A stretch of DNA of 48,800 nucleotides from a virus (taxonomy: Duplodnaviria; Heunggongvirae; Uroviricota; Caudoviricetes). Below, in pieces: positions 5,390 through 36,646 of the stretch. How positions within the stretch are numbered: position 1 is the stretch's first letter; every line of letters begins with the position of its first letter. Location: the IMG/VR virus record IMGVR_UViG_3300045256_000127. One strand, given 5' to 3'. The position numbers and the translations under genes were made by a program. The notes beneath the pieces are model-generated. The model was not told the DNA's origin, made no database searches, and saw only the letters and a list, made by a program, of their open reading frames with translations.

Positions 5390-6255
5390 AATGTCTCGTC
5401 ACCGGCGGTGCCGGATTCATCGGAGCCAACCTCGTCCGCCGTCTACTGAACGACGGCCACGTTGTCGTGGTCTGGGACAACCTTTCGACCGGAAAGCGTG
5501 AAAACCTGCCGGGCAGTCCGCACGGCCACCTGAGCTTCTACGAGATCGACGTGGCCGACATCAGCCCGGAGAAGCACGTTGAGAAGCGGTTCGACATCAT
5601 CTACCACTTGGCGGCACACGCCCGCATCCAGCCCAGCTTCAAGTCGCCCGACGAGTCGTTCAAGGCCAACGTCGGCGGCACGCTGAAGATGCTCGAACTC
5701 GCCAAGAAGCATGACGTGCCGTTGATCTACGCCGGGTCGAGTTCGTTCTACCACGACAAGTACGCCAACCCCTACACCTTTACCAAGTGGCAGGGCGAAG
5801 AGTTGTGCGTCATGTACAACAAGGTCTACAAGGTGCCGACGGCCATCGCCCGGTTCTTCAACGTCTACGGCCCGTTCCAGATCGAAGACGGCCCGTTCGC
5901 AACCGTCATGGGCGTCTTCGAGAAGTGTAAGAGAGAGGGCAAGGCGTTCCCCATCACCGGCACCGGCGAGCAGCGACGGGACTTCACCCACGTTGACGAC
6001 GTGGTGGAAGGTCTGGTCAAGGTCGCCGAAAAGCGTTGGAACGCCGACATCTTCAACTTCGGCACCGGGGCCAACTACTCGGTGAAGGAGATCGCCCGGA
6101 TGTTCAAGCCGTCTGCGGCGAGCTATGTTCCGGGACGACCGGGCGAGGCACCGGAAACCCTGGCCGACATCAAAGCCACGAAGAAGGCGTTGGGCTGGAC
6201 GCCGAAGATCAAGGTCGATGAGTACATCAAGGAATTCGTGAGCAAATGCGGGTAA
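5386..6255 (+). CDS. NAD-dependent nucleotide-sugar epimerase/dehydratase (extended SDR)
   Basis: LVTGGAGFIG Rossmann motif, YxxxK (YTFTK), RFFNVYGP and RDFTHVDD; ATGA overlap at 5386. Confidence 0.92.
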   Translation: MKCLVTGGAGFIGANLVRRLLNDGHVVVVWDNLSTGKRENLPGSPHGHLSFYEIDVADISPEKHVEKRFDIIYHLAAHARIQPSFKSPDESFKANVGGTLKMLELAKKHDVPLIYAGSSSFYHDKYANPYTFTKWQGEELCVMYNKVYKVPTAIARFFNVYGPFQIEDGPFATVMGVFEKCKREGKAFPITGTGEQRRDFTHVDDVVEGLVKVAEKRWNADIFNFGTGANYSVKEIARMFKPSAASYVPGRPGEAPETLADIKATKKALGWTPKIKVDEYIKEFVSKCG

Positions 6256-27249: not shown

Positions 27250-27335
27250 GGGTGCTGATCCACACGCCTGTCTGTAAAACAGGTGCCATTACTCTGTGTG
27301 GTGGTCGGCGAGAGGTTCAATTCCTCCAGTACCCA
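27250..27335 (+). tRNA. non-canonical tRNA-Tyr(GTA)-like gene, 8/4 fold, no D-arm
   Basis: Acceptor GGGTGCTG/CAGTACCC, anticodon arm CCTGT-CTGTAAA-ACAGG, T-arm GAGG-TTCAATT-CCTC; only 9 nt in the D region. Confidence 0.6.
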
Positions 27336-27432
27336 CTGACGATCCGGGAATTCACGGTCGTCTATAGCTGATCTACCATGTTGTAGAAACAGTACCCCTT
27401 GCCGTTAGTGAAGAACTGGCGGCAGGAGCTTT

Positions 27433-27513
27433 GAGCGTACTTCTTAGTGGGATAAGACCCAGGCTGTAACCCTGGTGCCATTTGGCTAAGCGGTTCGATT
27501 CCGTATACGCTCA
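27433..27513 (+). tRNA. tRNA-Tyr(GTA)
   Basis: Acceptor GAGCGTA/TACGCTC, CCAGG-CTGTAAC-CCTGG, long variable arm, TTCGATT loop. Confidence 0.8.
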
Positions 27514-27516
27514 CTC

Positions 27517-27664
27517 GGTTTGGTGACGGAAGGGCAGACGTGCCAGTAGCCGCAAGGCTGTTGTTTCGGCAAAACCTCGTCTCCGCAAGGAGAATGCCGT
27601 TCGGAACTACATGTAAAACTGGTGTGCCGAAAGGTGCGTGTTGGTTCGAATCCAACCCAAGCCG
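27517..27664 (+). tRNA. tRNA-Tyr(GTA)-like gene with 63-nt structured insert in the anticodon arm
   Basis: Intact acceptor, D, variable and T arms; CCAGT-[insert 27548-27610]-ATGTAAA-ACTGG. Confidence 0.7.
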
Positions 27665-27669
27665 GAAAT

Positions 27670-27798
27670 GTGGCGGTAGCTCAATTGGTAGAGCGCTAAA
27701 AGCGTCTATACACCTACTGGTCTTCGCAAGAAGAATGCTCCGTATGGATTACATCCATGAAAAGGAAGAGGTTGCAGGTTCGAGTCCTGCCCGCCACA
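27670..27798 (+). tRNA. tRNA-Phe(GAA)-like gene with 56-nt insert in the anticodon stem
   Basis: Canonical acceptor, D and T arms; removing 27698-27753 gives CTTCC-ATGAAAA-GGAAG. Confidence 0.7.
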
Positions 27799-27818
27799 CT
27801 TGATTAAGAAGGGTAGAG

Positions 27819-28031
27819 ATGGTAAACTTCTACGTCTATATGGTTCGGGATAAGAACTCCGGCAGGTGGCACAATTGGGGTGGCCTGACCGAGTGGTATC
27901 CCGACACCGCCCAGGGCGGGACGTGGTGGTACAAGAAGGAAGAGGCCGAGAAGTTTGCGGCCGAATACCCAAAGGAAACAGGCATTGATGCGGAAGTGGT
28001 CACGGTCCACGTCTGCGAGATGCCTAAGTGA
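27819..28031 (+). CDS. hypothetical protein
   Basis: ORF between tRNA genes, with RBS. Confidence 0.65.
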   Translation: MVNFYVYMVRDKNSGRWHNWGGLTEWYPDTAQGGTWWYKKEEAEKFAAEYPKETGIDAEVVTVHVCEMPK

Positions 28032-28034
28032 CAC

Positions 28035-28121
28035 GGAGACTTGGCAGAGTGGCTTAATGCACCTGTCTTGAAAACAGGCGACCCCGCAAGGGGTCCGGGG
28101 GTTCGAATCCCTCAGTCTCCG
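28035..28121 (+). tRNA. tRNA-Ser(TGA)
   Basis: Canonical class II cloverleaf, CCTGT-CTTGAAA-ACAGG, G73. Confidence 0.95.
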
Positions 28122-28126
28122 CTCTT

Positions 28127-28216
28127 GGAAGATGAACCGGGCAGGCGTACCGGCACCGTTTCGAAAACGGTTGGCACCCTTGAATGTGGTGTGGGGATCG
28201 ATACCTCCGTCTTCCG
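28127..28216 (+). tRNA. tRNA-Ser(CGA), 8/4 type
   Basis: GGAAGATG/CGTCTTCC acceptor, 4-bp T stem, loop TTCGAAA, long variable arm, G73. Confidence 0.8.
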
Positions 28217-28222
28217 CTTTAC

Positions 28223-28312
28223 GGAAGGTAAAACAGACAGGCGCACTGTCATCGTTTGCTAAACGATTGGCACCCTTTAATGTGGTGTGAGGTTCGAGTC
28301 CTCTGCCTTCCG
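28223..28312 (+). tRNA. tRNA-Ser(GCT), 8/4 type
   Basis: GGAAGGTA/TGCCTTCC acceptor, GAGG/CCTC T stem, loop TTGCTAA. Confidence 0.82.
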
Positions 28313-28358
28313 CTCAAGAAAAACGGCGAGCTTTTTCTCGACCCTACTATGTTAGGGA

Positions 28359-28436
28359 ATGAAAGAGCAAATCGTTAAACTGCGTAGCCAGGGCTTAGGC
28401 TACAAAGCAATAGCTAAGATAGTTGGTGAGCCATAG
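28359..28436 (+). pseudogene. HTH-like fragment, possible homing-endonuclease remnant
   Basis: MKEQIVKLRSQGLGYKAIAKIVGEP*, AT-rich, between tRNA genes. Confidence 0.35.
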
Positions 28437-28496
28437 TGAATTCCTCGACCTGTGTAAAAAGGTCTTGATACACAATGGCTACTCTGTTCAAAAGTT

Positions 28497-28583
28497 GGAA
28501 GGTTAACCAGACAGGCGTGCTGGCTTCGCTTGGAAAGCGAATGGTGCCTTTACCGGCATGGAGATCGAGACTTCAGCCTTCCG
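28497..28583 (+). tRNA. tRNA-Ser(GGA), 8/4 type
   Basis: GGAAGGTT/AGCCTTCC acceptor, TTCGC-TTGGAAA-GCGAA, 4-bp T stem. Confidence 0.8.
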
Positions 28584-28591
28584 CTCCACTA

Positions 28592-28823
28592 GCGGTGTTG
28601 CAACACCGTGATGTGGCAAGAGGTTAACTGACGGGTTGTTACGACTCGTTGGTGACAGCAGAAACGTCCCGTTGGGCCGCAAGGTCGCCTCGGGCAACGT
28701 ACAGAAATGCGAGTTAGGGGCTACTTCTCCACTAAGCCTAAACCAATGGAGAACTGGTGTACTGGCGCACACCCGGCCGTAAACCGGGAGGAGTGGGTTC
28801 GATTCCCATGCAAACGCCTCTGC
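28592..28823 (+). ncRNA. structured RNA ending in tRNA-like D, anticodon (GTA) and T arms without a local acceptor stem
   Basis: CCCGG-CCGTAAA-CCGGG at 28772-28788, GTGGG-TTCGATT-CCCAT, and several upstream hairpins. Confidence 0.45.
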
Positions 28824-28853
28824 TTACTACGTCTGTGCTGTTAGCCTCTTAAT

Positions 28854-28925
28854 GGTGCTTAGGTGTAACGGTTGCATTTGTGGTTGAAACCCACGAGGCA
28901 GCGGGTTCGACTCCCGCAGGCACCA
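28854..28925 (+). tRNA. tRNA-Phe(GAA)
   Basis: GGTGCTT/AGGCACC acceptor, TGTGG-TTGAAAC-CCACG, canonical T arm. Confidence 0.85.
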
Positions 28926-28926
28926 C

Positions 28927-29053
28927 TCGGTAGAATGCAGTTAGGATTACATGGTTGAAGTCTGGACCCCAAAAGGGTCTTTGATTAGGCTGTTCGAATC
29001 AGCCTCTCCTCGAAAGAGGGGTATAAGAAATCTTAGCGACCCTGGTCTACCGA
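28927..29053 (+). ncRNA. candidate multibranch RNA with a T-loop hairpin
   Basis: Closing helix TCGGTAGA/TCTACCGA; AGGCTG-TTCGAAT-CAGCCT; two further hairpins. Confidence 0.5.
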
Positions 29054-29058
29054 AACAT

Positions 29059-29152
29059 TGGCGAGTGGCGGAATAGTAGACGCAGCCCCGTTTTGTGGGG
29101 CCGATGGGCTGATCTCCCATCATGCAGGTATCGAATCCTGCCTCGCCAACCA
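29059..29152 (+). tRNA. Leu-type class II tRNA body with TTT anticodon and encoded CCA
   Basis: TGGCGAG/CTCGCCA acceptor, D-loop GAATAGTAGA, GCCCC-GTTTTGT-GGGGC, long variable arm, 8-nt T loop, A73-CCA. Confidence 0.65.
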
Positions 29153-29153
29153 T

Positions 29154-29226
29154 GCCAGCCAAGCTAACTTAGTAGAAGCGCATCGCTGAAAACGATGAGG
29201 ACTCGGAGCGTAACCGAGGGCTGGCA
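29154..29226 (+). tRNA. tRNA-Phe(GAA) with atypical T loop (AGCGTAA)
   Basis: GCCAGCC/GGCTGGC acceptor, CATCG-CTGAAAA-CGATG. Confidence 0.8.
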
Positions 29227-29250
29227 CTTACCCTAACTCAAGGATGAGTT

Positions 29251-29814
29251 ATGACGATTTGCGAAGACTTCGGAGGAATCGAAGTCACCACGAAAAACGC
29301 CTTCGGCATCGGCTACATTAACCGAAAGGTGTTGTTGAAGATCACCTGGGTGAGCTACGGAGCTTACACGATCACCGTGCAGAAGGCCGCTGAGTTGCCG
29401 ATGTCTGCCAACAAGTACACCGAGCCGAAGACTGATTACTCAATCAGCATCACGCCGGAACAGGTGGACAAGGTGGCCGAGTTGTTCGAGGCCGCAGAAA
29501 CGCCCGAACGGATGCAGTGTTACAAGCCGTTCTACGAGGACTACGACCCGGACCGGAGCATGTTTGACATGGAACACGACACGTTGTTCCAGGCGTTCAA
29601 GCAGAAGGATCGGGTCATCCTGACGAACATCAACTTCGTGTGCGGCGTGCCGTCGAGCATGGATTCGCTGAACATGACGTTCGAGGACTACCTGAAGTTC
29701 AAGGCGTACCTCGACAGCAAGAGGGATCAGGTCTTCTACTCGGGAGTAAAGTTCGGTCCAGCAGGGGTGGAGGCAGTGTGGTGCGGCGAGAAGAAGCCGG
29801 ACCATGTAAAGTAA
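29251..29814 (+). CDS. hypothetical protein
   Basis: 187 aa ORF with RBS. Confidence 0.7.
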   Translation: MTICEDFGGIEVTTKNAFGIGYINRKVLLKITWVSYGAYTITVQKAAELPMSANKYTEPKTDYSISITPEQVDKVAELFEAAETPERMQCYKPFYEDYDPDRSMFDMEHDTLFQAFKQKDRVILTNINFVCGVPSSMDSLNMTFEDYLKFKAYLDSKRDQVFYSGVKFGPAGVEAVWCGEKKPDHVK

Positions 29815-29953
29815 GTCGGTATGGTGTAATGGCAGCACGCCGCCCGGAGAGGGCAGGCTACCGGGGATCGTTCCCCTGGCGTTGCTTTACCAAAGGCAGC
29901 GGGATGGTATCCTAGTCTCTAGGGAAGTTGGGGTTCGAATCCCTATACCGGCT
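29815..29953 (+). ncRNA. tRNA-like RNA with anticodon arm replaced by a ~80-nt multi-hairpin domain
   Basis: GTCGGTA/TACCGGC acceptor, GTGT-AATGGCA-GCAC D arm, TGGGG-TTCGAAT-CCCTA T arm; no assignable anticodon. Confidence 0.65.
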
Positions 29954-29967
29954 CTTGGAGACACAAA

Positions 29968-30471
29968 ATGCCTCTGCTCGTGGTCGTGGACAGCATCCAC
30001 TACTCGCCGAAGGACAGCGAGACGGCGACGAAGGAACTGCTGATCGTCCGTGACCTGGATCAAGCCCTGGGGTACATCGACCAGGAACACCTGCTCGGGT
30101 ACTTCAAGGACGGCGACGACCAGGACGAGGACAGCGGCTACTACTCGCCGAGCGACGAGTGGTGGGAGCAGAACCCGACCAAGCGGGCCGAGGCGGAAGC
30201 CCTGGGTCTTGAGATCAGTGAATACGGCTCGGTTAGCGGGACTGGCGAGAACCTGACCCGGTGGTTGTCCTCGAACGACTGGAAGGATGCGGACGACGCC
30301 TACTACGGCGTGACGCACTACGACTGGTCGAAGCGGCAAGAGATCAGCGACGACGACGTTGCCACACTACTTCGCCTCGGACTGGCGAAGGACATTAGGG
30401 AATGGAAGCCCGATGAAGACGTACAGGGTAGTGATTCCGCCGCCGAAGGCGAAGCGGATGATGAGTCTTGA
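29968..30471 (+). CDS. hypothetical acidic protein
   Basis: ORF track, GGAG RBS. Confidence 0.7.
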   Translation: MPLLVVVDSIHYSPKDSETATKELLIVRDLDQALGYIDQEHLLGYFKDGDDQDEDSGYYSPSDEWWEQNPTKRAEAEALGLEISEYGSVSGTGENLTRWLSSNDWKDADDAYYGVTHYDWSKRQEISDDDVATLLRLGLAKDIREWKPDEDVQGSDSAAEGEADDES

Positions 30472-30700
30472 GAAGACGCTGCATGTCACCTTCGGGGACG
30501 GCTGGGGGCACGGCGGGGTCCACAAGTACACAATCCCCGCCGACAAGTTCTCCGCTGAGTTCTCGTTGAATGACGACGCCGAGTACAAGTACAACACGAG
30601 CATGATCGACGGCTTGACGTTCGACGTGTTCGTGGAGTACAAGAACGAGAGCGGCAGTCGAACGGAACGAAAGCACCTTGTACCGGAGTTGGTGACATGA
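30458..30700 (+). CDS. hypothetical protein
   Basis: ATG at 30458 overlapping the upstream stop region. Confidence 0.55.
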   Translation: MMSLEKTLHVTFGDGWGHGGVHKYTIPADKFSAEFSLNDDAEYKYNTSMIDGLTFDVFVEYKNESGSRTERKHLVPELVT

Positions 30701-30873
30701 AGGAACACAACTGGTCGGGGGACCGCTGTGTGGACTGCAACCGGCCCAGGGACGACGCCGGGGTGGAATGTCCGGGCGAGCCGGACAAGGACGCTGTGAT
30801 GCGATCCCCGCACGTCATTCATGGCGTGACCCTTCAGCCAGAGATGCTGCCAGGGTGCTTCCCAGAGAACTGA
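30697..30873 (+). CDS. small Cys-containing hypothetical protein (58 aa)
   Basis: ATGA overlap; MKEHNWSGDRCVDCNRPR... Confidence 0.45.
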   Translation: MKEHNWSGDRCVDCNRPRDDAGVECPGEPDKDAVMRSPHVIHGVTLQPEMLPGCFPEN

Positions 30874-30874
30874 G

Positions 30875-31060
30875 ATGAAGCGAACGATACACTACATCGA
30901 CACGGCGGGCCTGTCCCAGCGGCAGGCACTAGCCCTGATCGAGCGTCTGAAAGACTGCATCCGCACGGGCAAGAAGTTGCCGACGATGTACGTCGTCAGG
31001 ACGGAAGAAGTAGAAGTGTCTAATGTCCATATGGGGGAACAGGCAGACCCGCCAGTTTGA
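30875..31060 (+). CDS. hypothetical protein, reads into tRNA-Leu
   Basis: ORF track. Confidence 0.5.
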   Translation: MKRTIHYIDTAGLSQRQALALIERLKDCIRTGKKLPTMYVVRTEEVEVSNVHMGEQADPPV

Positions 31061-31106
31061 GGGACTGGTGCCGCAAGGCGTGCAGGTTCGACTCCTGCTA
31101 TGGACA
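31025..31106 (+). tRNA. tRNA-Leu(GAG), long variable arm
   Basis: GTCCATA/TATGGAC acceptor, CCAGT-TTGAGGG-ACTGG, A73. Confidence 0.9.
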
Positions 31107-31157
31107 CTTTACAAAAGCCGAGAAGGCCATAGACTGCGATCTCCAACGGAGGACGAC

Positions 31158-31508
31158 ATGATCGCAGTCATGTGTACGCAAGGGACACTCAAGTTCCAAG
31201 AGATTCGGGACGAGTGTCCCACGAACAAGTGGTTCCCCATCCTGACCTACGTCATCAACGGGGAGCAAGTGCTACTTTTGTTTTCGGACCAAAAGGTAGC
31301 CAAGCAGTTCATCAAGCGGAACCTTCCGAAAGACTGGCTGCACGGGGCCATCGAACTGACCGACGACGACGAGAAGATGCTGCGAGAGCGGTTCAAGGTG
31401 CGGGAGATGAACTACCCGAACCTGATGAAAGACCTGCCCGGCATCGAGTGGAAGGAAGAAGTGCTGGAACTCGACGAGCGGCCCAACTTCCATGTAAGTA
31501 GACTGTAG
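31158..31508 (+). CDS. hypothetical protein
   Basis: GGAGGA RBS, ATG at 31158. Confidence 0.7.
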   Translation: MIAVMCTQGTLKFQEIRDECPTNKWFPILTYVINGEQVLLLFSDQKVAKQFIKRNLPKDWLHGAIELTDDDEKMLRERFKVREMNYPNLMKDLPGIEWKEEVLELDERPNFHVSRL

Positions 31509-31577
31509 ACACGGCGAACTTTCCGGTGTAAATTCTGAGAAGTCGCCCGCCTCTCTACTCGCAACGGAGTTCGCAAG

Positions 31578-32018
31578 ATGACCGTGAAGACCGTGGACAT
31601 CCGCCCCTCCCAGGCCATCATGGGGATCGCCCTGTTCGCCGCCATCGGCTTGAGCGGGTGGCAGTTCTGGAAGAACGAGGACACGAAGGTCAAGACGGAG
31701 TTGAAGACGAACCTGACCGAGCAGGAGATTCGCCTGCTCCAACAGGAACTCGCCACCGCCCGGCACGAACTGCTGGAGGAGAAGACCAAGCCGAGCTACG
31801 ACGACGGCTACCGGGCCTGCATCCTGAGCATGGGTGGGGCGCAGCAGAACGGGTCGTACAAGGACGGGTGGGACGCCGCCGTGAAGATGCTGAACAACCG
31901 GAGCTACGCCGACGGCTACCACAACGCCATCGAGCAGTTCGGCTACCAGACGCAGGGCAAGCAGATCGTCCCGAAGAACGAGCCGGAAAGTTCGGCGAAG
32001 ACCGAACCGAAGAAGTGA
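31578..32018 (+). CDS. hypothetical membrane-anchored coiled-coil protein
   Basis: N-terminal TM segment; repeated YxDG[YW] motif. Confidence 0.7.
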   Translation: MTVKTVDIRPSQAIMGIALFAAIGLSGWQFWKNEDTKVKTELKTNLTEQEIRLLQQELATARHELLEEKTKPSYDDGYRACILSMGGAQQNGSYKDGWDAAVKMLNNRSYADGYHNAIEQFGYQTQGKQIVPKNEPESSAKTEPKK

Positions 32019-32047
32019 TCGAAGTGTCCGTCTAACAGGCGGACCAC

Positions 32048-32122
32048 GCCATCGTAGACCAACTGGCAGGAGTCACCAGACTGAGATGCTGGGCAGTGTG
32101 GGTTCGAATCCCACCGATGGCA
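32048..32122 (+). tRNA. tRNA-Leu(GAG), short variable loop
   Basis: GCCATCG/CGATGGC acceptor, loop CTGAGAT, one anticodon-stem mismatch. Confidence 0.75.
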
Positions 32123-32146
32123 CTGAATTCGTTAGTGAAGGAGTTT

Positions 32147-32425
32147 ATGTCTAGGAAGACCTTTTACCGCCAATGCCGTCTGGTCCGCAAGACCGAGACG
32201 GGCACGATGAACCAAGTAAGCTGGATTCCCGAGCCTTACTGTGTGAAGGACAAGGTGCTGAAGCTGAAGAAGGACGACGGCACCTGGGAGAACGGCTGGG
32301 TGGTAGAAGGTGCCGGTGACAACCGGCTGGCCCAAGACCAACTCCCGGACTACCACACGATGATTAAGGGGCACCGGAAGAACACCGGCGACTCCGAGCC
32401 GAAGCAGAAGAAGGTGACTGCGTGA
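32147..32425 (+). CDS. hypothetical protein
   Basis: AAGGAG RBS. Confidence 0.7.
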   Translation: MSRKTFYRQCRLVRKTETGTMNQVSWIPEPYCVKDKVLKLKKDDGTWENGWVVEGAGDNRLAQDQLPDYHTMIKGHRKNTGDSEPKQKKVTA

Positions 32426-32868
32426 CGGATGAGCCGAAGATGGTGACGTTCTGTTTCCAAACAGTCGATACCGAAGGCAGAGGGAAAAACCTGATGACAC
32501 CGGATGAGGCGAAGGAGAAGGTTGTCGAGGCGATCAAGGCGGGGCGAGTCAGCTTCGCACCCAGAGCCGAGGAGTCTTTGGCGAATATGTCTCTCGACAA
32601 CCCGGACTTCACCGTCACGAAGGTCACGATGAACGAAGGCAACCTGCGGAACAACGCAGGTCGCTGGATCGGGTTCGAGTGGGAAACCGTCTCGGCAGGA
32701 TTCGGTGAAACCGTGTTCTGCCTCTACAACGACGGGCGGGTGGAGATCGACAACGAAGCAATGAGCCGGGACTTCATCAAGAACGTCCTGGCGAAGTGCG
32801 AGAACGAGGAGGTTCGAGAGCGGCTTCTGAGGCTGCTACCGACAGCGAAGCTGTACGACGAAAAGTAA
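32422..32868 (+). CDS. hypothetical protein
   Basis: GTGA overlap. Confidence 0.65.
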   Translation: MTDEPKMVTFCFQTVDTEGRGKNLMTPDEAKEKVVEAIKAGRVSFAPRAEESLANMSLDNPDFTVTKVTMNEGNLRNNAGRWIGFEWETVSAGFGETVFCLYNDGRVEIDNEAMSRDFIKNVLAKCENEEVRERLLRLLPTAKLYDEK

Positions 32869-32874
32869 CGACAT

Positions 32875-32949
32875 GCCGTCGTAGACCAACTGGCAGGAGT
32901 CGCCATGCTCAGAACGTGGACAGTGTGGGTTCGAATCCCACCGACGGCA
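32875..32949 (+). tRNA. tRNA-Leu(CAG), short variable loop
   Basis: GCCGTCG/CGACGGC acceptor, CCATG-CTCAGAA-CGTGG. Confidence 0.85.
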
Positions 32950-32952
32950 CTA

Positions 32953-33075
32953 GGGGTAGCTGTTCCCTCCTTCAACGGGAATAGCGGCGAGATGGGTGTG
33001 GGTAATCGCCTTAAAACAACATACCACTGTACCGTAAGGTAACATGGGGAGCAACGGCTGACCACAAGCCGCCCC
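32953..33075 (+). ncRNA. candidate structured spacer RNA between two tRNA-Leu genes
   Basis: GCTGTTCCC/GGGAATAGC and GGCGA/TCGCC hairpins; GGGG/CCCC ends. Confidence 0.4.
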
Positions 33076-33080
33076 GATAT

Positions 33081-33156
33081 CGCACCGTAGACCAATTTGG
33101 CAGGAGTCGCCTCGCTTAGAACGAGGACAGTGTGGGTTCGAATCCCTCCGGTGCGA
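33081..33156 (+). tRNA. tRNA-Leu(TAG), short variable loop
   Basis: CGCACCG/CGGTGCG acceptor, CCTCG-CTTAGAA-CGAGG. Confidence 0.85.
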
Positions 33157-33181
33157 CTCATATTACACTAAGGGCAACGAG

Positions 33182-33940
33182 ATGTCCCGGACCTTCGCTC
33201 CGATCAGCATCGACGACCTGCGTGCCAAGATCGACGCCATCTGCGGCGACGAGGGCGTGAGGCCACTGATCGACAAGCTGGGCAAGGACATCAAGGTCGA
33301 GTTCGACCTGGAGAACGTCGCATACGACGCCGACGACTTCGGGCCGAAGTCGGTGCTGGGCTACCACACCGAGAACGGGTTGACGTGGTGCGGCTTCGCC
33401 GCTGGTGGGGATTGGGAACACCCCGTCTTCTTCATGGTGTATTGGGACGGGAAGAAGCTGCGGGGCTATGTGCCGACCGACGGCAACCCCTGGAACAGCA
33501 TCACCAAGCAAGCCTACGGCAACGACGACGAGAAAGACCTACAAGACGCCAAGAAGCGGTGGCCCGAAACCTACGCCGACGTAGAAGAAGTGGAAGGCCA
33601 CGACTTCGAGTTCGACGAGAAGGCGATCAAGGCCGACTTCATGGCTCGGATCGCCCCGGCCGGTGGCGCAGCCGCACCCACCAAGAAAACAAAGAAGACC
33701 AAGCAGACCATCGAGGAGCGGATCGTCGCCCTGAAATTCTACGGGACCGGCGACGAAGCCTACGAGTTGTTCCAGCAGACCTGCGGCCTGTGTTACTCGA
33801 TGAACGCCCTGGGCACGCCCGAGCAAGCCGAGACGCTGTGCAAGTGGGCCGAGGAGATGGCCGCTCAGAGCTACGAGGACGCCGTGCAGAACGACGGCGA
33901 CCTGAACGACGTAGCACAAGGCTGGTGGGGACGCCAGTAA
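33182..33940 (+). CDS. hypothetical acidic two-domain protein
   Basis: 252 aa ORF. Confidence 0.75.
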   Translation: MSRTFAPISIDDLRAKIDAICGDEGVRPLIDKLGKDIKVEFDLENVAYDADDFGPKSVLGYHTENGLTWCGFAAGGDWEHPVFFMVYWDGKKLRGYVPTDGNPWNSITKQAYGNDDEKDLQDAKKRWPETYADVEEVEGHDFEFDEKAIKADFMARIAPAGGAAAPTKKTKKTKQTIEERIVALKFYGTGDEAYELFQQTCGLCYSMNALGTPEQAETLCKWAEEMAAQSYEDAVQNDGDLNDVAQGWWGRQ

Positions 33941-33964
33941 ACTATACTAAGGCAAAGGAATGCC

Positions 33965-34588
33965 ATGTCAAAAGAAACTGAAGACCTGATCGCCAAGTGG
34001 GAAGCCGAGCCGAACGACCGGATTTACATTCGGCACGGCGAGAGTCGGTACAACAAGAAAGAAACGACCGATCTCGACAGCGAACTCACTGACGAAGGCG
34101 TTCTCCAAATCCGCCGTGTCGCTCGCTGGCTCAAAGACAACGTTCCGAAGCTCCTGTACTCCGGGTACTTCGGCGTGACGACGCCGTACCTGCGAGCGTT
34201 GCAGTCGGCCCGGATCATCCGGGAGATCACCGGCCTTCCGTTCCACGTTCACTCCGGCCCTCGGGAAGTGATGACGTGTTACGATTCCGTCGAGATCAAG
34301 AACCGAAGCTGGGAGTTCAAAGACCTGGACTGGTCGCTGTGCCTGACCGAGCCGTGGAAGTTTCGGCGTGAAACCGACGACGACTTCTGCAAGCGAGTCC
34401 GCCAGTACCATGAGGACTGCTCTCGCATCAAACGGATGGTGACGGTTTCGCACGGCACGCCCATCGTGGCCTTGCACGAGTTGGATCAGGGAATCAAGAA
34501 CCCGCCGAACGTTGTGCAATATCCGAGAAATGGGAGCGTAACTCGGGTTGTCGGCGGGAAGCTGGTTTGTTATGATCTTGTGGTATGA
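33965..34588 (+). CDS. histidine phosphatase (phosphoglycerate mutase-like) family protein
   Basis: IRHGES, PYLRALQSA and VSHG motifs. Confidence 0.88.
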   Translation: MSKETEDLIAKWEAEPNDRIYIRHGESRYNKKETTDLDSELTDEGVLQIRRVARWLKDNVPKLLYSGYFGVTTPYLRALQSARIIREITGLPFHVHSGPREVMTCYDSVEIKNRSWEFKDLDWSLCLTEPWKFRRETDDDFCKRVRQYHEDCSRIKRMVTVSHGTPIVALHELDQGIKNPPNVVQYPRNGSVTRVVGGKLVCYDLVV

Positions 34589-34908
34589 GCGAAGCAAAAG
34601 AAAAGATGGTTATCGAGATCGATAACCTGACCCCGGCCCAGAAGCTTGCAATCGAAGACATGCTGGCGACGTGGGTTTCCCTCGGACAGATGGGAAGCTC
34701 ACGCTGGACAGCGTTCTTCGCCGACGGCGACGGCAACTTCCACCCGAAGGTGACGGTAGACGGGGAAGACGCCCAGCCGTGCAAGCTGACGGACCGGGAG
34801 AAGCGTTGGCGTGACGCCGCTTTCGCCACCCTCGACGGCGGCTCGATCTCGACCGACATGTACATGATCGACTTCGACGAGATCGCATGGGCGTTGCGAA
34901 AGGACTAA
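34585..34908 (+). CDS. hypothetical protein
   Basis: ATGA overlap. Confidence 0.65.
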   Translation: MSEAKEKMVIEIDNLTPAQKLAIEDMLATWVSLGQMGSSRWTAFFADGDGNFHPKVTVDGEDAQPCKLTDREKRWRDAAFATLDGGSISTDMYMIDFDEIAWALRKD

Positions 34909-34915
34909 AGTAGAT

Positions 34916-34997
34916 GGCCTCGTGGGGGAACTGGCAGACCCGCATGACTCAAAATCTTGTGCCGCAAGGCGTGTCGGTTCGAGTCCGACCGAGGCTA
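34916..34997 (+). tRNA. tRNA-Leu(CAA), long variable arm
   Basis: GGCCTCG/CGAGGCT acceptor, loop CTCAAAA, A73. Confidence 0.88.
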
Positions 34998-35028
34998 CTT
35001 TAACTCTCCCCGCTTCAAGGATGAAGTG

Positions 35029-35448
35029 ATGAAAAAGGTCGTTGGCAAAGTCGGCGAGGAACTTCGCCTTCACTACGGCAAGACTCCAGAGGAGTACCGG
35101 GCGTTCGCCGCAGGCTTCGCAGCGGGTCAGGCCGAAAAGGTGTACCTGGGTGCCTGTCAGGCAGCTATGTTCCGCCCGAGTAATGACCACTTCGAGTGGT
35201 ATTACCAGGAAGTGAAGCGAATCGCTGATGCCTACGGCCTAGAAACTCGTGTGCTGTCTTCCTTCCAAATGGAGACATCCCACGAGATTTGGATTTACAG
35301 GGAGAAGACGGTCGTCGGGATGTGGATGATGCAGGACATCAACTCCCCGGAGTGGCACCAACTGCGTGCCCAACTCTGCGGCATCCCGGCCGACGAGGTT
35401 GATGTGAACTACCACCTGCGGAGCGGGTACGGAGAGAAGTGTGATTGA
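35029..35448 (+). CDS. hypothetical protein
   Basis: ATG at 35029 in ORF 34957..35448. Confidence 0.65.
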   Translation: MKKVVGKVGEELRLHYGKTPEEYRAFAAGFAAGQAEKVYLGACQAAMFRPSNDHFEWYYQEVKRIADAYGLETRVLSSFQMETSHEIWIYREKTVVGMWMMQDINSPEWHQLRAQLCGIPADEVDVNYHLRSGYGEKCD

Positions 35449-35740
35449 GAACGCAGAAGTCCGGCTGGCCGACAGGACGATCAAGACCCGGCTGCACGAG
35501 CATGGCGAGGATCGGTTCGACGGGAAGTCTGTGAACACCGGCTACTTCGACGGGAAGTTGGCTGAGATGCAGGCGATCCTCGACGCCAAGTTGACGACGG
35601 TCGAGATTTATGTTGACGGTAAGCTCGACACGACACTCACCGGGGCACACGCTTGGAAGCTTCATGATTGGAGCTACAAGGATTACGATCACGCCGTCCT
35701 GCATGTGCATTGGGATTACGAGGAAGACGAAGACTATTGA
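35441..35740 (+). CDS. hypothetical protein
   Basis: ORF track, coupled to neighbours. Confidence 0.6.
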   Translation: MIENAEVRLADRTIKTRLHEHGEDRFDGKSVNTGYFDGKLAEMQAILDAKLTTVEIYVDGKLDTTLTGAHAWKLHDWSYKDYDHAVLHVHWDYEEDEDY

Positions 35741-35928
35741 TGAAGAGGATCACAAATATCGACGATGTGGTTCGCTCGGTTCTTGTGTATGGCGAGCAGG
35801 GTATCTTTTGGATGCCGAAAGCACCTAGAGAATACTGGCCTCACCTATACGAAGCCTTACTTCCGCATCGAGACAATCAATACGCAGGAGCAATCCTGTC
35901 GGCTATTGAAAAACTGACGGCACCATAG
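35740..35928 (+). CDS. hypothetical protein
   Basis: TGATG overlap; stop codon lies inside the tRNA gene. Confidence 0.55.
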   Translation: MKRITNIDDVVRSVLVYGEQGIFWMPKAPREYWPHLYEALLPHRDNQYAGAILSAIEKLTAP

Positions 35929-35993
35929 ACCAACTGGCAGGAGTCGCCTCGCTCAAAACGAGGACAGTGTGGGTTCGAATCCCTCTGGTGCTA
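35919..35993 (+). tRNA. tRNA-Leu(CAA), short variable loop
   Basis: GGCACCA/TGGTGCT acceptor, CCTCG-CTCAAAA-CGAGG. Confidence 0.85.
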
Positions 35994-36012
35994 CTGAACT
36001 TTAACTTGGAGG

Positions 36013-36552
36013 TTGTCATATGCCACAGCTAAACGCCATTACCTCAACAAACGGAGTCTGAGGAAAAAGCGGGACGAGTACGAAGAACTGTACATGTACT
36101 TCGAACAGAACGAGGTACAGCCGACCGAGATCGGCAGCGAACAGTTCTATCGCTACGAGTCCTTCGGCGAGAAGCCCGAAGTCCCTGACCCATACTACCT
36201 GCGGCTTTGCCAGGGTAAGAAGTGGTTCAGCGTCCAGCAGGAGATGATACGAAACTCCTGGCTCACCTGGGAATGGTGGGGTTGGTATCAATACTGGATC
36301 GACTGGAAGGGCAATCGCTGGATGCTGCGGTATCTGATGGACTGGCACCCAGGCCCGCCGGAGTGGTTGTTCATGGAAGACGATGACCACGTTGAGAAAG
36401 TCCTCAACGACCCCGAGCCAAAGTTGTTCTACCCTGAGCCAACGCCCGAGGAAGTGAACGGCCCGCCGAAGTGTACTTGGTGCAACGACACGAAGGTGAT
36501 CTACGGCGAGTCGCCGAACAAGCCGCAGGGTGAAACCTGCCCGATGTGTTGA
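36013..36552 (+). CDS. hypothetical Trp-rich protein
   Basis: GGAGG RBS, TTG start, C-terminal CxxC pairs. Confidence 0.65.
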   Translation: MSYATAKRHYLNKRSLRKKRDEYEELYMYFEQNEVQPTEIGSEQFYRYESFGEKPEVPDPYYLRLCQGKKWFSVQQEMIRNSWLTWEWWGWYQYWIDWKGNRWMLRYLMDWHPGPPEWLFMEDDDHVEKVLNDPEPKLFYPEPTPEEVNGPPKCTWCNDTKVIYGESPNKPQGETCPMC

Positions 36553-36562
36553 AAGGAAAGTC

Positions 36563-36637
36563 ATGGACGACAACGACGACGGCACGATGTTCTTCGCCAT
36601 CATGGTCATCATTATCATGCTGATCTTGCTTTGGTGA
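36563..36637 (+). CDS. 24-aa single-pass membrane peptide
   Basis: MDDNDDGTMFFAIMVIIIMLILLW; AAAGGA RBS. Confidence 0.5.
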   Translation: MDDNDDGTMFFAIMVIIIMLILLW

Positions 36638-36646
36638 GTTAATCCT

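What the first reader, a model, noticed from the sequence alone, without database searches (positions are those of the whole stretch)
27517..27798. Two adjacent tRNA genes carry related 56-63 nt inserts in the anticodon arm
Seen: deleting 27548-27610 restores tRNA-Tyr(GTA), and deleting 27698-27753 restores tRNA-Phe(GAA) with a perfect 5-bp stem. The inserts share ACCT..GTCTYC-GCAA-GRAGA-ATG..CCGT..GGA..TACA|T. The GCAA hairpin shows a compensatory C-G to T-A change (27580-27593 vs 27721-27734). The inserts sit at different positions (31/32 vs 28/29). They are far too short for group I/II introns and I see no bulge-helix-bulge. Inference: either a new minimal intron or processing element that makes tRNA maturation conditional, or a protective/decoy domain.
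Basis: partly seen in the sequence, partly recalled or inferred. Interest (0 to 1): 0.85.

Follow-up and report, generated by a model that had tools for sequence, protein, structure and literature searches.

The report
Y-RNA stems grafted into phage tRNAs
Two tRNA genes of a huge phage carry, in the anticodon arm, a loop-capped copy of the stem by which bacterial Y RNAs bind the Ro60/Rsr protein, so they look like tRNA-Y RNA hybrids and not like a new kind of intron.

Summary
Deleting 27548-27610 gives a canonical tRNA-Tyr(GUA), and deleting 27698-27753 gives a canonical tRNA-Phe(GAA). The two inserts are homologous and structured.

The inserts are not an unknown element. Each is a hairpin-capped copy of the Rsr/Ro60-binding stem of YrlA-type bacterial Y RNAs, of the kind found next to TROVE (Ro60) genes in Planctomycetota, the likely host phylum.
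- Sequence profiles built only from host YrlAs pick the inserts as the top hits in the window.
- A covariance model built only from the inserts finds only Y RNA loci in 151 Planctomycetota genomes.
- A third copy, in the usual ends-in-the-stem topology, forms the base of a 127-nt RNA at 28927-29053.
- A related phage keeps the tRNA-Tyr insert, with compensatory changes.

Most likely these genes give stable tRNA-Y RNA chimeras that bind Rsr and take part in the conflict over tRNA damage. Splicing is not excluded. No Ro60 gene lies in the window, and all phage copies read GNAGAAUG where host YrlAs read GNCGAAUG.

I rate this a new variant of a known kind: an un-permuted YrlA with free acceptor ends and anticodon-loop sequence. 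Earlier notes of this scan, on other DNA, describe phage Y-like RNAs built on tRNA bodies.

The parts
27517..27664 (+). tRNA-Tyr(GUA) body carrying the Y-stem insert (tRNA-Y RNA chimera 'Tyr-i'). Acceptor 27517-23 pairs with 27657-63. D arm 27526-41. Anticodon stem CCAGU 27543-47 pairs with ACUGG 27618-22. Loop AUGUAAA 27611-17. Long variable arm 27623-39. T arm 27640-56.
   Evidence: ARAGORN -i. The deletion construct is called tRNA-Tyr(gta). The orthologue with the insert is at L062:1019-1164.
27548..27610 (+). 63-nt Tyr insert (equally 27549-27611). It contains, in order: a 5' GNRA hairpin AGCC-GCAA-GGCU (27548-59); P2 strand GUUUCGG (27563-69); loop strand CAAAACCUCG (27570-79); P1 UCUCC (27580-84); cap GCAA (27585-88); P1 GGAGA (27589-93); loop strand AUGCC (27594-98); P2 strand UCGGAAC (27601-07); and YUAY = CUAC (27607-10).
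   Evidence: Hand pairing on alignments A2, A5 and A6. In L062 the pair G27568-C27602 becomes A-U, and the 5' hairpin is kept as GCC-GAAA-GGC. With profiles built from host YrlAs, nhmmer gives E 4e-4 for strand A and E 0.034 for strand B; each is the top hit of its profile.
27670..27798 (+). tRNA-Phe(GAA) body carrying the Y-stem insert ('Phe-i'). Acceptor 27670-76 pairs with 27791-97. D arm 27679-94. C27 and U28 at 27696-97. The rest of the anticodon arm, UCC-AUGAAAA-GGAAG, is at 27754-68. T arm 27774-90.
   Evidence: Rfam tRNA model, 50.5 bits across the insert. The deletion construct is called tRNA-Phe(gaa). This gene is absent from the related phage, where a Methyltransf_24 gene takes its place.
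27698..27753 (+). 56-nt Phe insert. It contains, in order: linker AAAAGC (27698-703); P2 strand GUCUAUAC (27704-11); loop strand ACCUACUGG (27712-20); P1 UCUUC (27721-25); cap GCAA (27726-29); P1 GAAGA (27730-34); loop strand AUGCUCC (27735-41); P2 strand GUAUGGAU (27742-49); and UACA (27750-53; YUAY = UUAC at 27749-52).
   Evidence: MFE fold. Model R1 scores 62.7 bits. nhmmer with the host strand-A profile gives only E 1.2, rank 6, so this copy is the more diverged one.
28927..29053 (+). 127-nt Y RNA in the usual (permuted) topology. P1 is UCGGUAGA (28927-34) paired with UCUACCGA (29046-53). Loop strands are AUGCA (28935-39) and GACCCUGG (29038-45). P2 is GUUAGGAUU (28940-48) paired with AAUCUUAGC (29029-37). 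YUAY = UUAC (28947-50), then AU. Inside are a variable-arm-like hairpin, a T arm AGGCUG-UUCGAAU-CAGCCU, and an acceptor-like hairpin CUCCUC-GAAA-GAGGGG. There is no D arm.
   Evidence: Third copy of the motif. MFE -48 kcal/mol, z -4.35, 0 of 200 shuffles fold as well. Conserved in L059, with compensatory changes in P1 and all three hairpins. nhmmer with the host strand-A profile gives E 5e-3, the second-best hit in the window.
27433..27514 (+). Uninterrupted tRNA-Tyr(GUA) just upstream. It makes the insert-bearing copy redundant for decoding.
   Evidence: ARAGORN. Only about 60% identical to the Tyr-i exons.
28854..28926 (+). Uninterrupted tRNA-Phe(GAA). A second one lies at 29154-29227.
   Evidence: ARAGORN and Rfam. 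About 63-68% identical to the Phe-i exons.
41499..41876 (+). Small 2H phosphoesterase inside the tRNA array, with two HxT motifs (HMTI, HITV). It is context only: a possible enzyme for healing RNA ends.
   Evidence: Pfam PF08302 (Trl1 CPD domain), E 1.6e-4, 21.7 bits, just under the cut-off of 23. Motifs read from the translation.

Best explanation
The two inserts are hairpin-capped copies of the Rsr/Ro60-binding module of YrlA-type bacterial Y RNAs. The module has helix P1, an asymmetric internal loop (AUGCn opposite an A-rich strand ending YUSG), helix P2, and then YUAY. In both genes it branches from the anticodon arm of an otherwise complete, normally ordered tRNA body, one Tyr and one Phe.

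I infer the following mechanism. The array transcript is cut by RNase P and RNase Z at the tRNA ends. This yields stable RNAs of about 130-150 nt with a real acceptor end and a Y stem where the anticodon arm should continue. These chimeras bind the host's Rsr, or a phage Ro60-like protein encoded elsewhere, through the stem. They present a tRNA-Tyr or tRNA-Phe body as the effector module. In that role they could act as a decoy or competitor for tRNA-targeting nucleases, or tether Rsr with its partners (PNPase, RNA repair enzymes) to tRNA-binding factors during infection.

Shown here: the identity and structure of the module, its conservation, and its three topologies. Inferred: Rsr binding, stability without splicing, and the role in tRNA-damage conflict.
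For: 1. Host YrlAs carry the same module. Planctomycetota genomes, reached through homologues of the window's DUF1559 gene, carry TROVE genes. YrlA RNAs lie just upstream on the same strand, and 20 of 151 sampled genomes of the phylum have YrlA. Their strands read GYGGCGAAUGCC-nnnn-GGAACUACAUG and GUUUCnCC-AAnCCUYG-UCGCCRC. Tyr-i reads GGAGAAUGCC-GUUC-GGAACUACAUG and GUUUCGG-CAAAACCUCG-UCUCC.

2. The match holds in a blind search. Profiles were built only from host YrlAs and run over the whole window on both strands. The strand-A profile's two best hits are the Tyr insert (E 4e-4) and the 127-nt RNA (E 5e-3). The strand-B profile's best hit is the Tyr insert (E 0.034).

3. The match holds in reverse. 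Model R1, built only from the three insert sequences, finds two hits in 151 Planctomycetota genomes. Both are junctions of tandem Y RNA genes within YrlA arrays, where strand B is followed by strand A.

4. The published YrlA features are present. These are a GNCGAAN0-1G-like motif on the 5' strand and a YUAY after the second helix (Chen 2014, PMC4201824). The stem leaves the tRNA-like domain at the anticodon stem, as in the YrlA crystal structure (Wang 2018, 10.1101/312249).

5. The module occurs in places that are not introns. It forms the base of the 127-nt RNA. It also stands alone between tRNA-Gly and a tRNA-like gene at L212:9398-9445.

6. The structure is under purifying selection. The orthologue in L062 keeps the Tyr insert at about the same identity as the exons while the flanks diverge. 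It has a G-C to A-U change in P2 and keeps the 5' GNRA hairpin. The 127-nt RNA covaries in L059.

7. Uninterrupted tRNA-Tyr and tRNA-Phe genes lie alongside, so decoding does not need the interrupted copies.
Against: 1. No TROVE/Ro60 gene was found among the window ORFs I scanned. I could not read the rest of the phage genome.

2. All five phage copies read GNAGAAUG where host YrlAs mostly read GNCGAAUG. The partner base changes too, so the pair is kept. This position lies in the motif thought to contact Rsr.

3. P1 is only 5 bp and is capped. No Y RNA with the cap on this side has been tested for Rsr binding.

4. Exact deletion restores a perfect 5-bp stem and a 7-nt loop with U33, the right anticodon and a purine at 37, in both genes and at two different positions. 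A pure Y RNA role does not require this. It fits splicing, or recognition by a synthetase or a nuclease.

5. Rfam's YrlA model gives only 28.3 bits, and on a register that runs across the two genes. Adjacent ordinary tRNAs in phage Bxz1 give about 20-22 bits. The same model finds nothing on the 127-nt RNA alone.

6. As a blind scan with the Rfam consensus strands, simple alignment scores are within chance. Only the targeted test (P about 7e-4 and 2e-3) and the host-derived profiles are significant.
Confidence: 0.62

Rival explanations
1. The Y stem is a true intervening sequence. It is cut out at both junctions, and the exons are joined by an RtcB-type or a phage heal-and-seal ligase. This would give working tRNA-Tyr and tRNA-Phe plus a free mini Y RNA hairpin of 56-63 nt. 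tRNA maturation would then depend on the Rsr and RNA-repair machinery.
For: - Deletion restores canonical anticodon arms in both genes, and in the orthologue.
- The 3' junction sits at a fixed distance from P2 (UACA|U) in both genes.
- A 2H phosphoesterase and a histidine phosphatase lie in the array.
- In many bacteria rsr and yrlA sit in one operon with the tRNA-splicing-type ligase RtcB. Wang 2018 raised the possibility that some YrlAs are processed to resemble canonical tRNAs.
- A free-standing capped stem exists at L212.
Against: - No endonuclease or ligase gene was found in the window.
- There is no bulge-helix-bulge motif, and no Rfam ribozyme or intron family matches.
- The 5' junction lies at different distances from the module, 6 versus 14-15 nt, and shares no sequence.
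- In L062 the junctions that give A32 fall at UAC|A and not UACA|U, so one common cleavage rule does not fit all copies.
- The same module works in contexts where nothing can be spliced.
- Uninterrupted isoacceptors are present.
Confidence: 0.17
2. The two genes are decaying by-products of recombination between Y RNA genes and tRNA genes in a repeat-rich array. They have no function of their own.
For: - The array holds many aberrant tRNA-like genes.
- Tandem host Y RNA genes naturally place strand B before strand A, so unequal recombination could make such hairpins.
- Phe-i is missing from the related phage.
Against: - Tyr-i is kept in a phage that is only about 79% identical. All its helices are intact, with compensatory changes, while the flanks diverge.
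- Both tRNA bodies and both Y stems fold without a mismatch.
- The sequence is identical in independent samples.
Confidence: 0.1
3. The inserts are a small mobile DNA element (MITE- or IS200/IS605-like) that targets tRNA genes. Alternatively, they are a new self-cleaving ribozyme or intron class unrelated to Y RNAs.
For: - Homologous inserts sit at two different positions in two tRNA genes.
- The ends of the 127-nt RNA look like imperfect inverted repeats.
- Earlier notes record IS200/IS605 and TnpB elements in this genome (not checked here).
Against: - The inserts are 'inside-out' relative to the 127-nt RNA: the outer helix of one is the capped inner helix of the other. This fits an RNA module and not transposon ends.
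- The 5' flanks share no target sequence.
- Covariation keeps RNA pairing intact.
- The homology to host YrlA stems explains the conserved bases.
- No Rfam ribozyme matches.
Confidence: 0.04

Closest known systems
YrlA-type bacterial Y RNAs with Rsr/Ro60 (Chen et al. 2014, PMC4201824; Wang et al. 2018, 10.1101/312249; Rfam RF02553)
   Same: - The same two-helix stem with an asymmetric internal loop.
- The same conserved letters: (C/A)GAAUGC on one strand, an A-rich strand ending YUSG before UC on the other, and YUAY after the second helix.
- The stem leaves a tRNA-shaped domain at the anticodon stem.
- The genes lie among tRNA genes, and phage-encoded examples are known.
- The 127-nt RNA has the usual ends-in-the-stem topology.
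   Different: - In the two chimeras the topology is reversed. The RNA ends are at a normal 7-bp acceptor stem, the Ro-binding stem is closed by a GCAA loop, and the anticodon-loop sequence is kept. Published YrlAs have a closed acceptor stem, no free CCA end and no anticodon loop.
- The phage copies read GNAGAAUG, not GNCGAAUG.
- No rsr gene lies within 4 kb or anywhere in the window.
- The Rfam gathering score is not reached.
[quoted passage not shown] 2014)
   Same: A Y RNA whose tRNA-like domain ends in a free acceptor stem like that of a tRNA.
   Different: That RNA ends up in two pieces, because the Ro-binding stem also carries the transcript's ends. Here the RNA is one piece with a capped stem, and it carries a Tyr or Phe anticodon sequence.
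'Enigmatic' short introns in Lak megaphage tRNAs (Devoto et al. 2019, PMC6784885) and the tRNA-shaped inserts noted earlier in this scan
   Same: Short, conserved inserts in phage tRNA genes that are neither group I nor group II. Deleting them restores a tRNA.
   Different: One Lak insert may itself encode a tRNA, and the inserts in this scan's earlier notes are tRNA-shaped. These inserts are not tRNA-shaped: ARAGORN makes no tRNA call inside them. They match a known protein-binding module.
Archaeal and eukaryal protein-spliced tRNA introns (bulge-helix-bulge motif, EndA/TSEN, RtcB) and permuted tRNA genes
   Same: The inserts sit in the anticodon arm, at a non-canonical position as well. The permuted and normal topologies side by side recall the permuted tRNA genes of Cyanidioschyzon.
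   Different: No bulge-helix-bulge motif can be drawn at the junctions. No splicing endonuclease is known in bacteria or found here.

Membership tests
YrlA-type Y RNA (Rfam RF02553; Chen 2014) | Rsr/Ro60-binding stem with a conserved 5'-strand motif GNCGAAN0-1G | tested here: inconclusive
   All five phage copies read GNAGAAUG. One letter differs, and the pairing partner changes too. Profiles built from host YrlAs still rank the sites first. Whether Rsr tolerates the A is unknown.
YrlA-type Y RNA (Rfam RF02553; Chen 2014) | Stem architecture P1 - 5-nt/8-nt internal loop - 7-bp P2 - YUAY, homologous to bona fide YrlAs | tested here: met
   The strands match Planctomycetota YrlAs next to TROVE genes. 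nhmmer gives E 4e-4, 5e-3 and 0.034. Model R1, built from the inserts, retrieves only Y RNA loci in 151 genomes. CUAC or UUAC is present in every copy.
YrlA-type Y RNA (Rfam RF02553; Chen 2014) | tRNA-like effector domain with T and D arms | tested here: met
   The chimeras hold complete tRNA bodies. The 127-nt RNA has a T arm and an acceptor-like hairpin but no D arm.
YrlA-type Y RNA (Rfam RF02553; Chen 2014) | Circularly permuted order: RNA ends in the Ro-binding stem, acceptor stem closed by a loop, no anticodon loop | tested here: not met
   Tyr-i and Phe-i have the opposite topology and keep the anticodon-loop sequence. The feature is met only by the 127-nt RNA.
YrlA-type Y RNA (Rfam RF02553; Chen 2014) | Encoded within about 4 kb of an rsr (TROVE) gene, on the same strand | tested here: not met
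   No TROVE hit among the window ORFs scanned. The two large ORFs without a Pfam hit are a glucoamylase-like protein and one with no usable match. The rest of the phage genome could not be read.
YrlA-type Y RNA (Rfam RF02553; Chen 2014) | Rfam gathering score (69 bits) | tested here: not met
   28.3 bits, on a register that spans both genes, and no hit on the 127-nt RNA. However, true YrlAs of phage Bxz1 (32.5 bits) and most Planctomycetota YrlAs (41-68 bits) also fall below the score.
YrlA-type Y RNA (Rfam RF02553; Chen 2014) | Binds Rsr/Ro60 | not testable with these tools
   Needs EMSA or co-immunoprecipitation.
Group I / group II self-splicing introns in tRNA genes | Catalytic core (P3-P9 and a terminal G, or domains I-VI); more than about 200 nt | tested here: not met
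   The inserts are 56 and 63 nt. No Rfam intron family matches, even at E up to 1.
Archaeal/eukaryal tRNA introns | Bulge-helix-bulge motif that places both splice sites in 3-nt bulges 4 bp apart | tested here: not met
   Inspection of both junctions in the sequence and in the predicted folds shows no such motif.
tRNA-shaped mini-introns of phage tRNAs (Lak phages; earlier notes of this scan) | The insert itself folds like a (mini) tRNA, with ends that fit RNase P and RNase Z | tested here: not met
   The insert has a GNRA-capped 5-bp hairpin, not a T arm. There are 5-7 nt between that hairpin and the closing helix. ARAGORN makes no tRNA call inside the inserts.

The most novel reading that the evidence does not exclude
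The Y stem is a removable intervening sequence. Rsr binding to the stem, together with an RtcB-type or phage heal-and-seal ligase, would control cutting and rejoining of these pre-tRNAs. The phage would then release working tRNA-Tyr and tRNA-Phe, and a mini Y RNA, only when the host's RNA-repair response is switched on. This would be the first protein-dependent tRNA splicing in the bacterial world, and it would give Y RNAs a function.

A second, milder reading is independent of splicing. These chimeras may be surviving examples of the tRNA-with-Y-stem intermediate from which permuted YrlAs arose by tandem duplication. Both topologies sit side by side here and share GGAUUACAU and a GAA loop.
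Probability: 0.13. Interest if true: 0.9.

Novelty: new variant of a known kind. Interest (0 to 1): 0.62.

Why it matters
What the tRNA-like half of bacterial Y RNAs does is unknown, and so is how it arose from tRNA. The current model derives YrlA from a two-tRNA transcript.

This phage carries the Ro60-binding stem on complete, normally ordered tRNA-Tyr and tRNA-Phe bodies with their anticodon sequences. Next to them lies a permuted Y RNA built on the same stem. That gives three things:
- A natural intermediate for the origin question.
- Defined RNAs for asking whether synthetases, anticodon nucleases or repair ligases read the tRNA half.
- A lead on how a huge phage of Planctomycetes might use or block the host's Rsr system. 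Its tRNA array is limited to Tyr, Ser, Phe and Leu.

It also carries a warning. Some 'short introns' reported in phage tRNA genes may be protein-binding modules and not introns.

Tried and rejected
Searches for more copies of the insert:
- The exact 19-mer in viral contigs gave 0 hits.
- A degenerate insert pattern in viral contigs gave 42 hits. None has a complementary hairpin; they look like coding-sequence noise.
- A degenerate pattern in metagenome contigs gave 14 hits, all noise.
- GAGAATGC..GGAWYTACAT in viral contigs gave 37 hits. Only L212 (free-standing capped stem) and L245 (hairpin Y RNA) are real.

Searches for relatives of the phage:
- Neighbouring proteins found no close relatives in viral contigs.
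- megablast and blastn against cultured phages found only generic tRNA matches.
- I could not fetch the window's own 131-kb contig to look for a TROVE gene. Only short Logan contigs were returned.

Readings I considered and dropped:
- Rfam's YrlA hit at 27609-27724 reads across the Tyr-i/Phe-i junction. I rejected that register: strand A of Tyr-i and strand B of Phe-i cannot form P2, and the two acceptor strands do not pair. Ordinary adjacent tRNAs in Bxz1 score about 20-22 bits in the same way.
- A hammerhead, hairpin, twister or pistol ribozyme: no Rfam match.
- The 11-nt tetraloop receptor (CCUA/UAUGG, seen in Phe only): absent from Tyr.
- A sigma-70 promoter reading of GAATGC..TACAT: the spacing of 9-11 nt is too short.
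- An IS200/IS605 mini-element: there is no shared target sequence at the 5' flanks.
- UACAU as a MazF (EndoA-type) cleavage site. The specificity is from my memory only. The cut would fall 2-3 nt from the junction, and UACAU is explained as the conserved YUAY-AU of YrlAs.
- The payload of the 127-nt RNA as a permuted functional tRNA: no anticodon stem can be formed, and L059 deletes a stem base.
Full report
**The observation**

The window is part of a huge uncultivated phage. Earlier notes of this scan say so, and the gene content fits: class II RNR, SbcCD, CTP synthase, DnaJ and PhoH.

Default ARAGORN misses the two genes. In intron mode it calls tRNA-Tyr(gta) at 27516-27665 with a 63-nt insert. 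The Rfam tRNA model spans 27670-27798 at 50.5 bits while skipping 69 nt.

I deleted 27548-27610 (or 27549-27611; the A is ambiguous) and 27698-27753, then re-ran ARAGORN. It returned a canonical class II tRNA-Tyr(gta) and a tRNA-Phe(gaa) with a perfect 5-bp anticodon stem.

The shared 19-mer GTCTYCGCAAGRAGAATGC occurs twice, against 0.07 expected by chance. An independent Logan contig from another sample is identical over 27260-32936.

**Anatomy of the insert**

Aligning the two inserts and folding them gives one architecture:
- an outer helix P2 of 7-8 bp;
- an asymmetric internal loop;
- an inner 5-bp helix P1 capped by GCAA;
- the letters UAC(A) just after P2, at the 3' junction.

P2 differs in sequence between the two genes but pairs in both. 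Tyr has an extra GNRA hairpin at its 5' end.

**A third copy changes the picture**

A scan for the 3' half of the motif found a third copy at 28933-28952, outside any tRNA. It lies at the 5' end of a 127-nt RNA, 28927-29053, that folds far better than shuffles: -48 kcal/mol, z -4.35.

The 3' end of this RNA, GACCCUGGUCUACC, matches the 5' half of the insert core (ACCUACUGGUCUUC). So the same two strands occur in both places but in opposite order:
- In the inserts, strand B comes first, then the GCAA cap, then strand A. P2 opens towards the tRNA.
- In the 127-nt RNA, strand A comes first, then three hairpins, then strand B. P1 carries the free ends.

This inside-out relation fits an RNA structural module. 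It does not fit transposon ends.

**Relatives of the phage**

Two small ORFs of the array led to Logan contigs of a phage about 79% identical in DNA.
- L059 keeps the 127-nt RNA. It has compensatory changes in P1 (U-A to C-G) and in all three inner hairpins, and the 30 nt GAATGCAGTTAGGATTACATGGTTGAAGTC are unchanged.
- L062 keeps the tRNA-Tyr with a 60-nt insert. The insert is about as conserved as the exons, while the flanks diverge. One P2 pair changes from G-C to A-U. The 5' hairpin is kept as GCC-GAAA-GGC. The ACCU of the loop strand is not kept.
- The insert-bearing tRNA-Phe is absent. A Methyltransf_24 gene takes its place.

**Identification of the module**

Rfam's YrlA model gave a weak hit, 28.3 bits, running from the Tyr insert across both tRNA halves into the Phe insert. 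That register is largely an artefact. Adjacent ordinary tRNAs of mycobacteriophage Bxz1 score about 20-22 bits in the same way. In this window the two strands involved cannot pair.

The model's consensus did, however, draw attention to its stem: cggCga-AUGCu-uggGgaa-CUAc on one strand and uucCcca-aAaAcUuG-ucGccg on the other. This reads like the Tyr insert: GGAGA-AUGCC-GUUCGGAAC-UAC and GUUUCGG-CAAAACCUCG-UCUCC.

As a blind scan with those consensus strands, the resemblance is within chance. As a targeted test at the two predefined sites, P is about 7e-4 and 2e-3. I therefore looked for independent data from the likely host phylum.
- The window's DUF1559 gene has its relatives in Planctomycetota.
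- Three of five such genomes carry TROVE (Ro60/Rsr) genes. YrlA RNAs lie just upstream on the same strand, at 41-59 bits.
- In a sample of 151 Planctomycetota genomes, 20 have YrlA.
- Their 5' strands read GYGGCGAAUGCC-nnnn-GGAACUACAUG, and their 3' strands read GUUUCnCC-AAnCCUYG-UCGCCRC. These are almost letter for letter the two strands of the Tyr insert.

Two formal tests agree.
- HMM profiles built only from these host YrlAs were run blind over the whole window. Strand A ranks the Tyr insert first (E 4e-4) and the 127-nt RNA second (E 5e-3). The more diverged Phe insert is sixth (E 1.2). Strand B ranks the Tyr insert first (E 0.034).
- In reverse, a covariance model built only from the three insert sequences finds just two hits in the same 151 genomes. 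Both are junctions between tandem Y RNA genes within YrlA arrays, where strand B of one gene is followed by strand A of the next.

**Comparison with the literature**

Chen et al. 2014 (PMC4201824) define YrlAs by three features: a GNCGAAN0-1G motif near the 5' end, a conserved YUAY before the variable loop, and a tRNA-like domain. Wang et al. 2018 (10.1101/312249) show that the Ro-binding module extends from the stem that corresponds to the anticodon stem. They also state that YrlA has a closed acceptor stem, no free CCA end and no anticodon loop. In effect it is a circularly permuted tRNA.

The 127-nt RNA fits that topology, though it lacks a D arm, as is reported for Deinococcus Yrn1.

The two chimeras have the opposite topology. 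They have a normal acceptor stem with free ends, normal arm order, and the Y stem capped and branching from the anticodon arm, with the anticodon-loop letters kept. I found no description of such a form. [quoted passage not shown]

The published origin model derives YrlA from a dimeric tRNA transcript. Tandem duplication of a chimera like these would give the permuted form directly. The Phe chimera and the 127-nt RNA share GGAUUACAU followed by a GAA-containing loop. This origin idea is inference.

**Function**

What is shown is the identity, structure, conservation and three topologies of the module. The third topology is a free-standing capped stem of 48 nt, lying exactly between tRNA-Gly and a tRNA-like gene in an unrelated IMG/VR contig (L212:9398-9445). 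A hairpin Y RNA with the same GAGAAUGCC variant occurs in L245.

What is inferred is that the chimeras are cut out by RNase P and RNase Z as stable RNAs, bind Rsr, and present a tRNA body.

The setting fits a conflict over tRNA damage:
- The array encodes only Tyr, Ser, Phe and Leu tRNAs (note).
- It contains a small 2H phosphoesterase with two HxT motifs and a histidine phosphatase.
- In Salmonella the rsr-yrlBA-rtcBA operon is switched on by cleaved tRNAs. [quoted passage not shown]

**What speaks against the best reading**

- No TROVE gene was found among the window ORFs I scanned. I could not reach the rest of the contig.
- All phage copies have A where host YrlAs have C in the presumed Rsr-contact motif.
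- A stem capped on this side is untested for binding.
- The exact restoration of canonical anticodon arms remains unexplained unless the RNAs are spliced or read by a synthetase or nuclease.

I therefore keep splicing as a live rival at about 0.17. The case against it is as follows. No endonuclease, ligase, bulge-helix-bulge motif or ribozyme was found. The 5' junctions share neither distance nor sequence. In L062 the junctions that give A32 fall one base away from the UACA|U rule of the Phe gene. Uninterrupted isoacceptors sit alongside.

**Verdict**

The finding is real, but it is not a new class of minimal intron. It is a new topological variant of a known family: YrlA-type Y RNA modules grafted onto un-permuted tRNA bodies in a phage tRNA array.

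Earlier notes of this scan describe phage Ro60-like genes with small RNAs 'built on tRNA bodies' that share a handle. I did not check those notes. They suggest the theme is wider than this phage.

Noticed in passing
window 28592-28823: An odd tRNA-Tyr-like RNA. It has D, anticodon (CCGUAAA) and T arms at 28755-28809, with about 130 nt of extra structure upstream. At 28700-28730 it contains a diverged look-alike of strand A (CAGAAAUGCGAGUUAGGGGCUAC). Neither the nhmmer profiles nor model R1 detected it. The region is largely conserved in L059.
   Followed up: partly
L212:9398-9445 (IMGVR_UViG_3300028563_000236): A free-standing 48-nt capped Y stem (GUUUCAUC-ACCCCUUG-UCUC-GUAU-GAGA-AUGCC-GGUGGAAC-UACAU). 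It fills the whole spacer between tRNA-Gly(ccc) and an aberrant tRNA-like gene, on a 10-kb contig with 19 tRNA genes. Model R1 scores 31.2 bits. No TROVE gene is on the fragment.
   Followed up: partly
L245, minus strand, around base 5857 of the reversed locus (IMGVR_UViG_3300005983_000002): A hairpin-type Y RNA (GCUAGAGA-AUGCC-GGUGGAAC-UACAU...GUUUCAUC-AAACCUAG-UCUCUAGC). It has the same GAGAAUGCC variant as the phage copies here, and a second similar unit follows. This suggests a phage-specific subtype of the Ro-binding motif.
   Followed up: partly
L159, L160, L164, L165, L168, L176-L202 (Planctomycetota genomes): Planctomycetota carry tandem arrays of two or three YrlA/YrlB-like RNAs upstream of TROVE genes. 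Only 5 of 151 sampled genomes have a match that reaches Rfam's gathering score of 69 bits; the other clear YrlAs score 41-68. The Rfam model therefore under-calls this phylum, and also phage Bxz1 (32.5 bits).
   Followed up: partly
L062:1164-1763 (relative phage): In the related phage a 199-aa Methyltransf_24 gene on the opposite strand sits exactly where this window has the insert-bearing tRNA-Phe.
   Followed up: no
window 41499-41876, 33965-34588, 39483-39857: A small 2H phosphoesterase (two HxT motifs; PF08302 at 21.7 bits), a histidine phosphatase (PF00300, E 5e-17) and an ASCH-domain protein lie among the tRNA genes. They could be enzymes that heal or modify RNA ends.
   Followed up: partly
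window 38510-39583 (-): A 357-aa ORF with no Pfam hit is a glucoamylase-like (alpha/alpha)6 protein according to the ESM Atlas (TM 0.9). It lies on the opposite strand inside the tRNA array.
   Followed up: partly
window 31025-43253: tRNA-Leu genes come in pairs with the same anticodon about 0.8-1 kb apart (gag, caa, taa). In each pair one gene has a long variable arm and the other a short one, with small ORFs between them.
   Followed up: no
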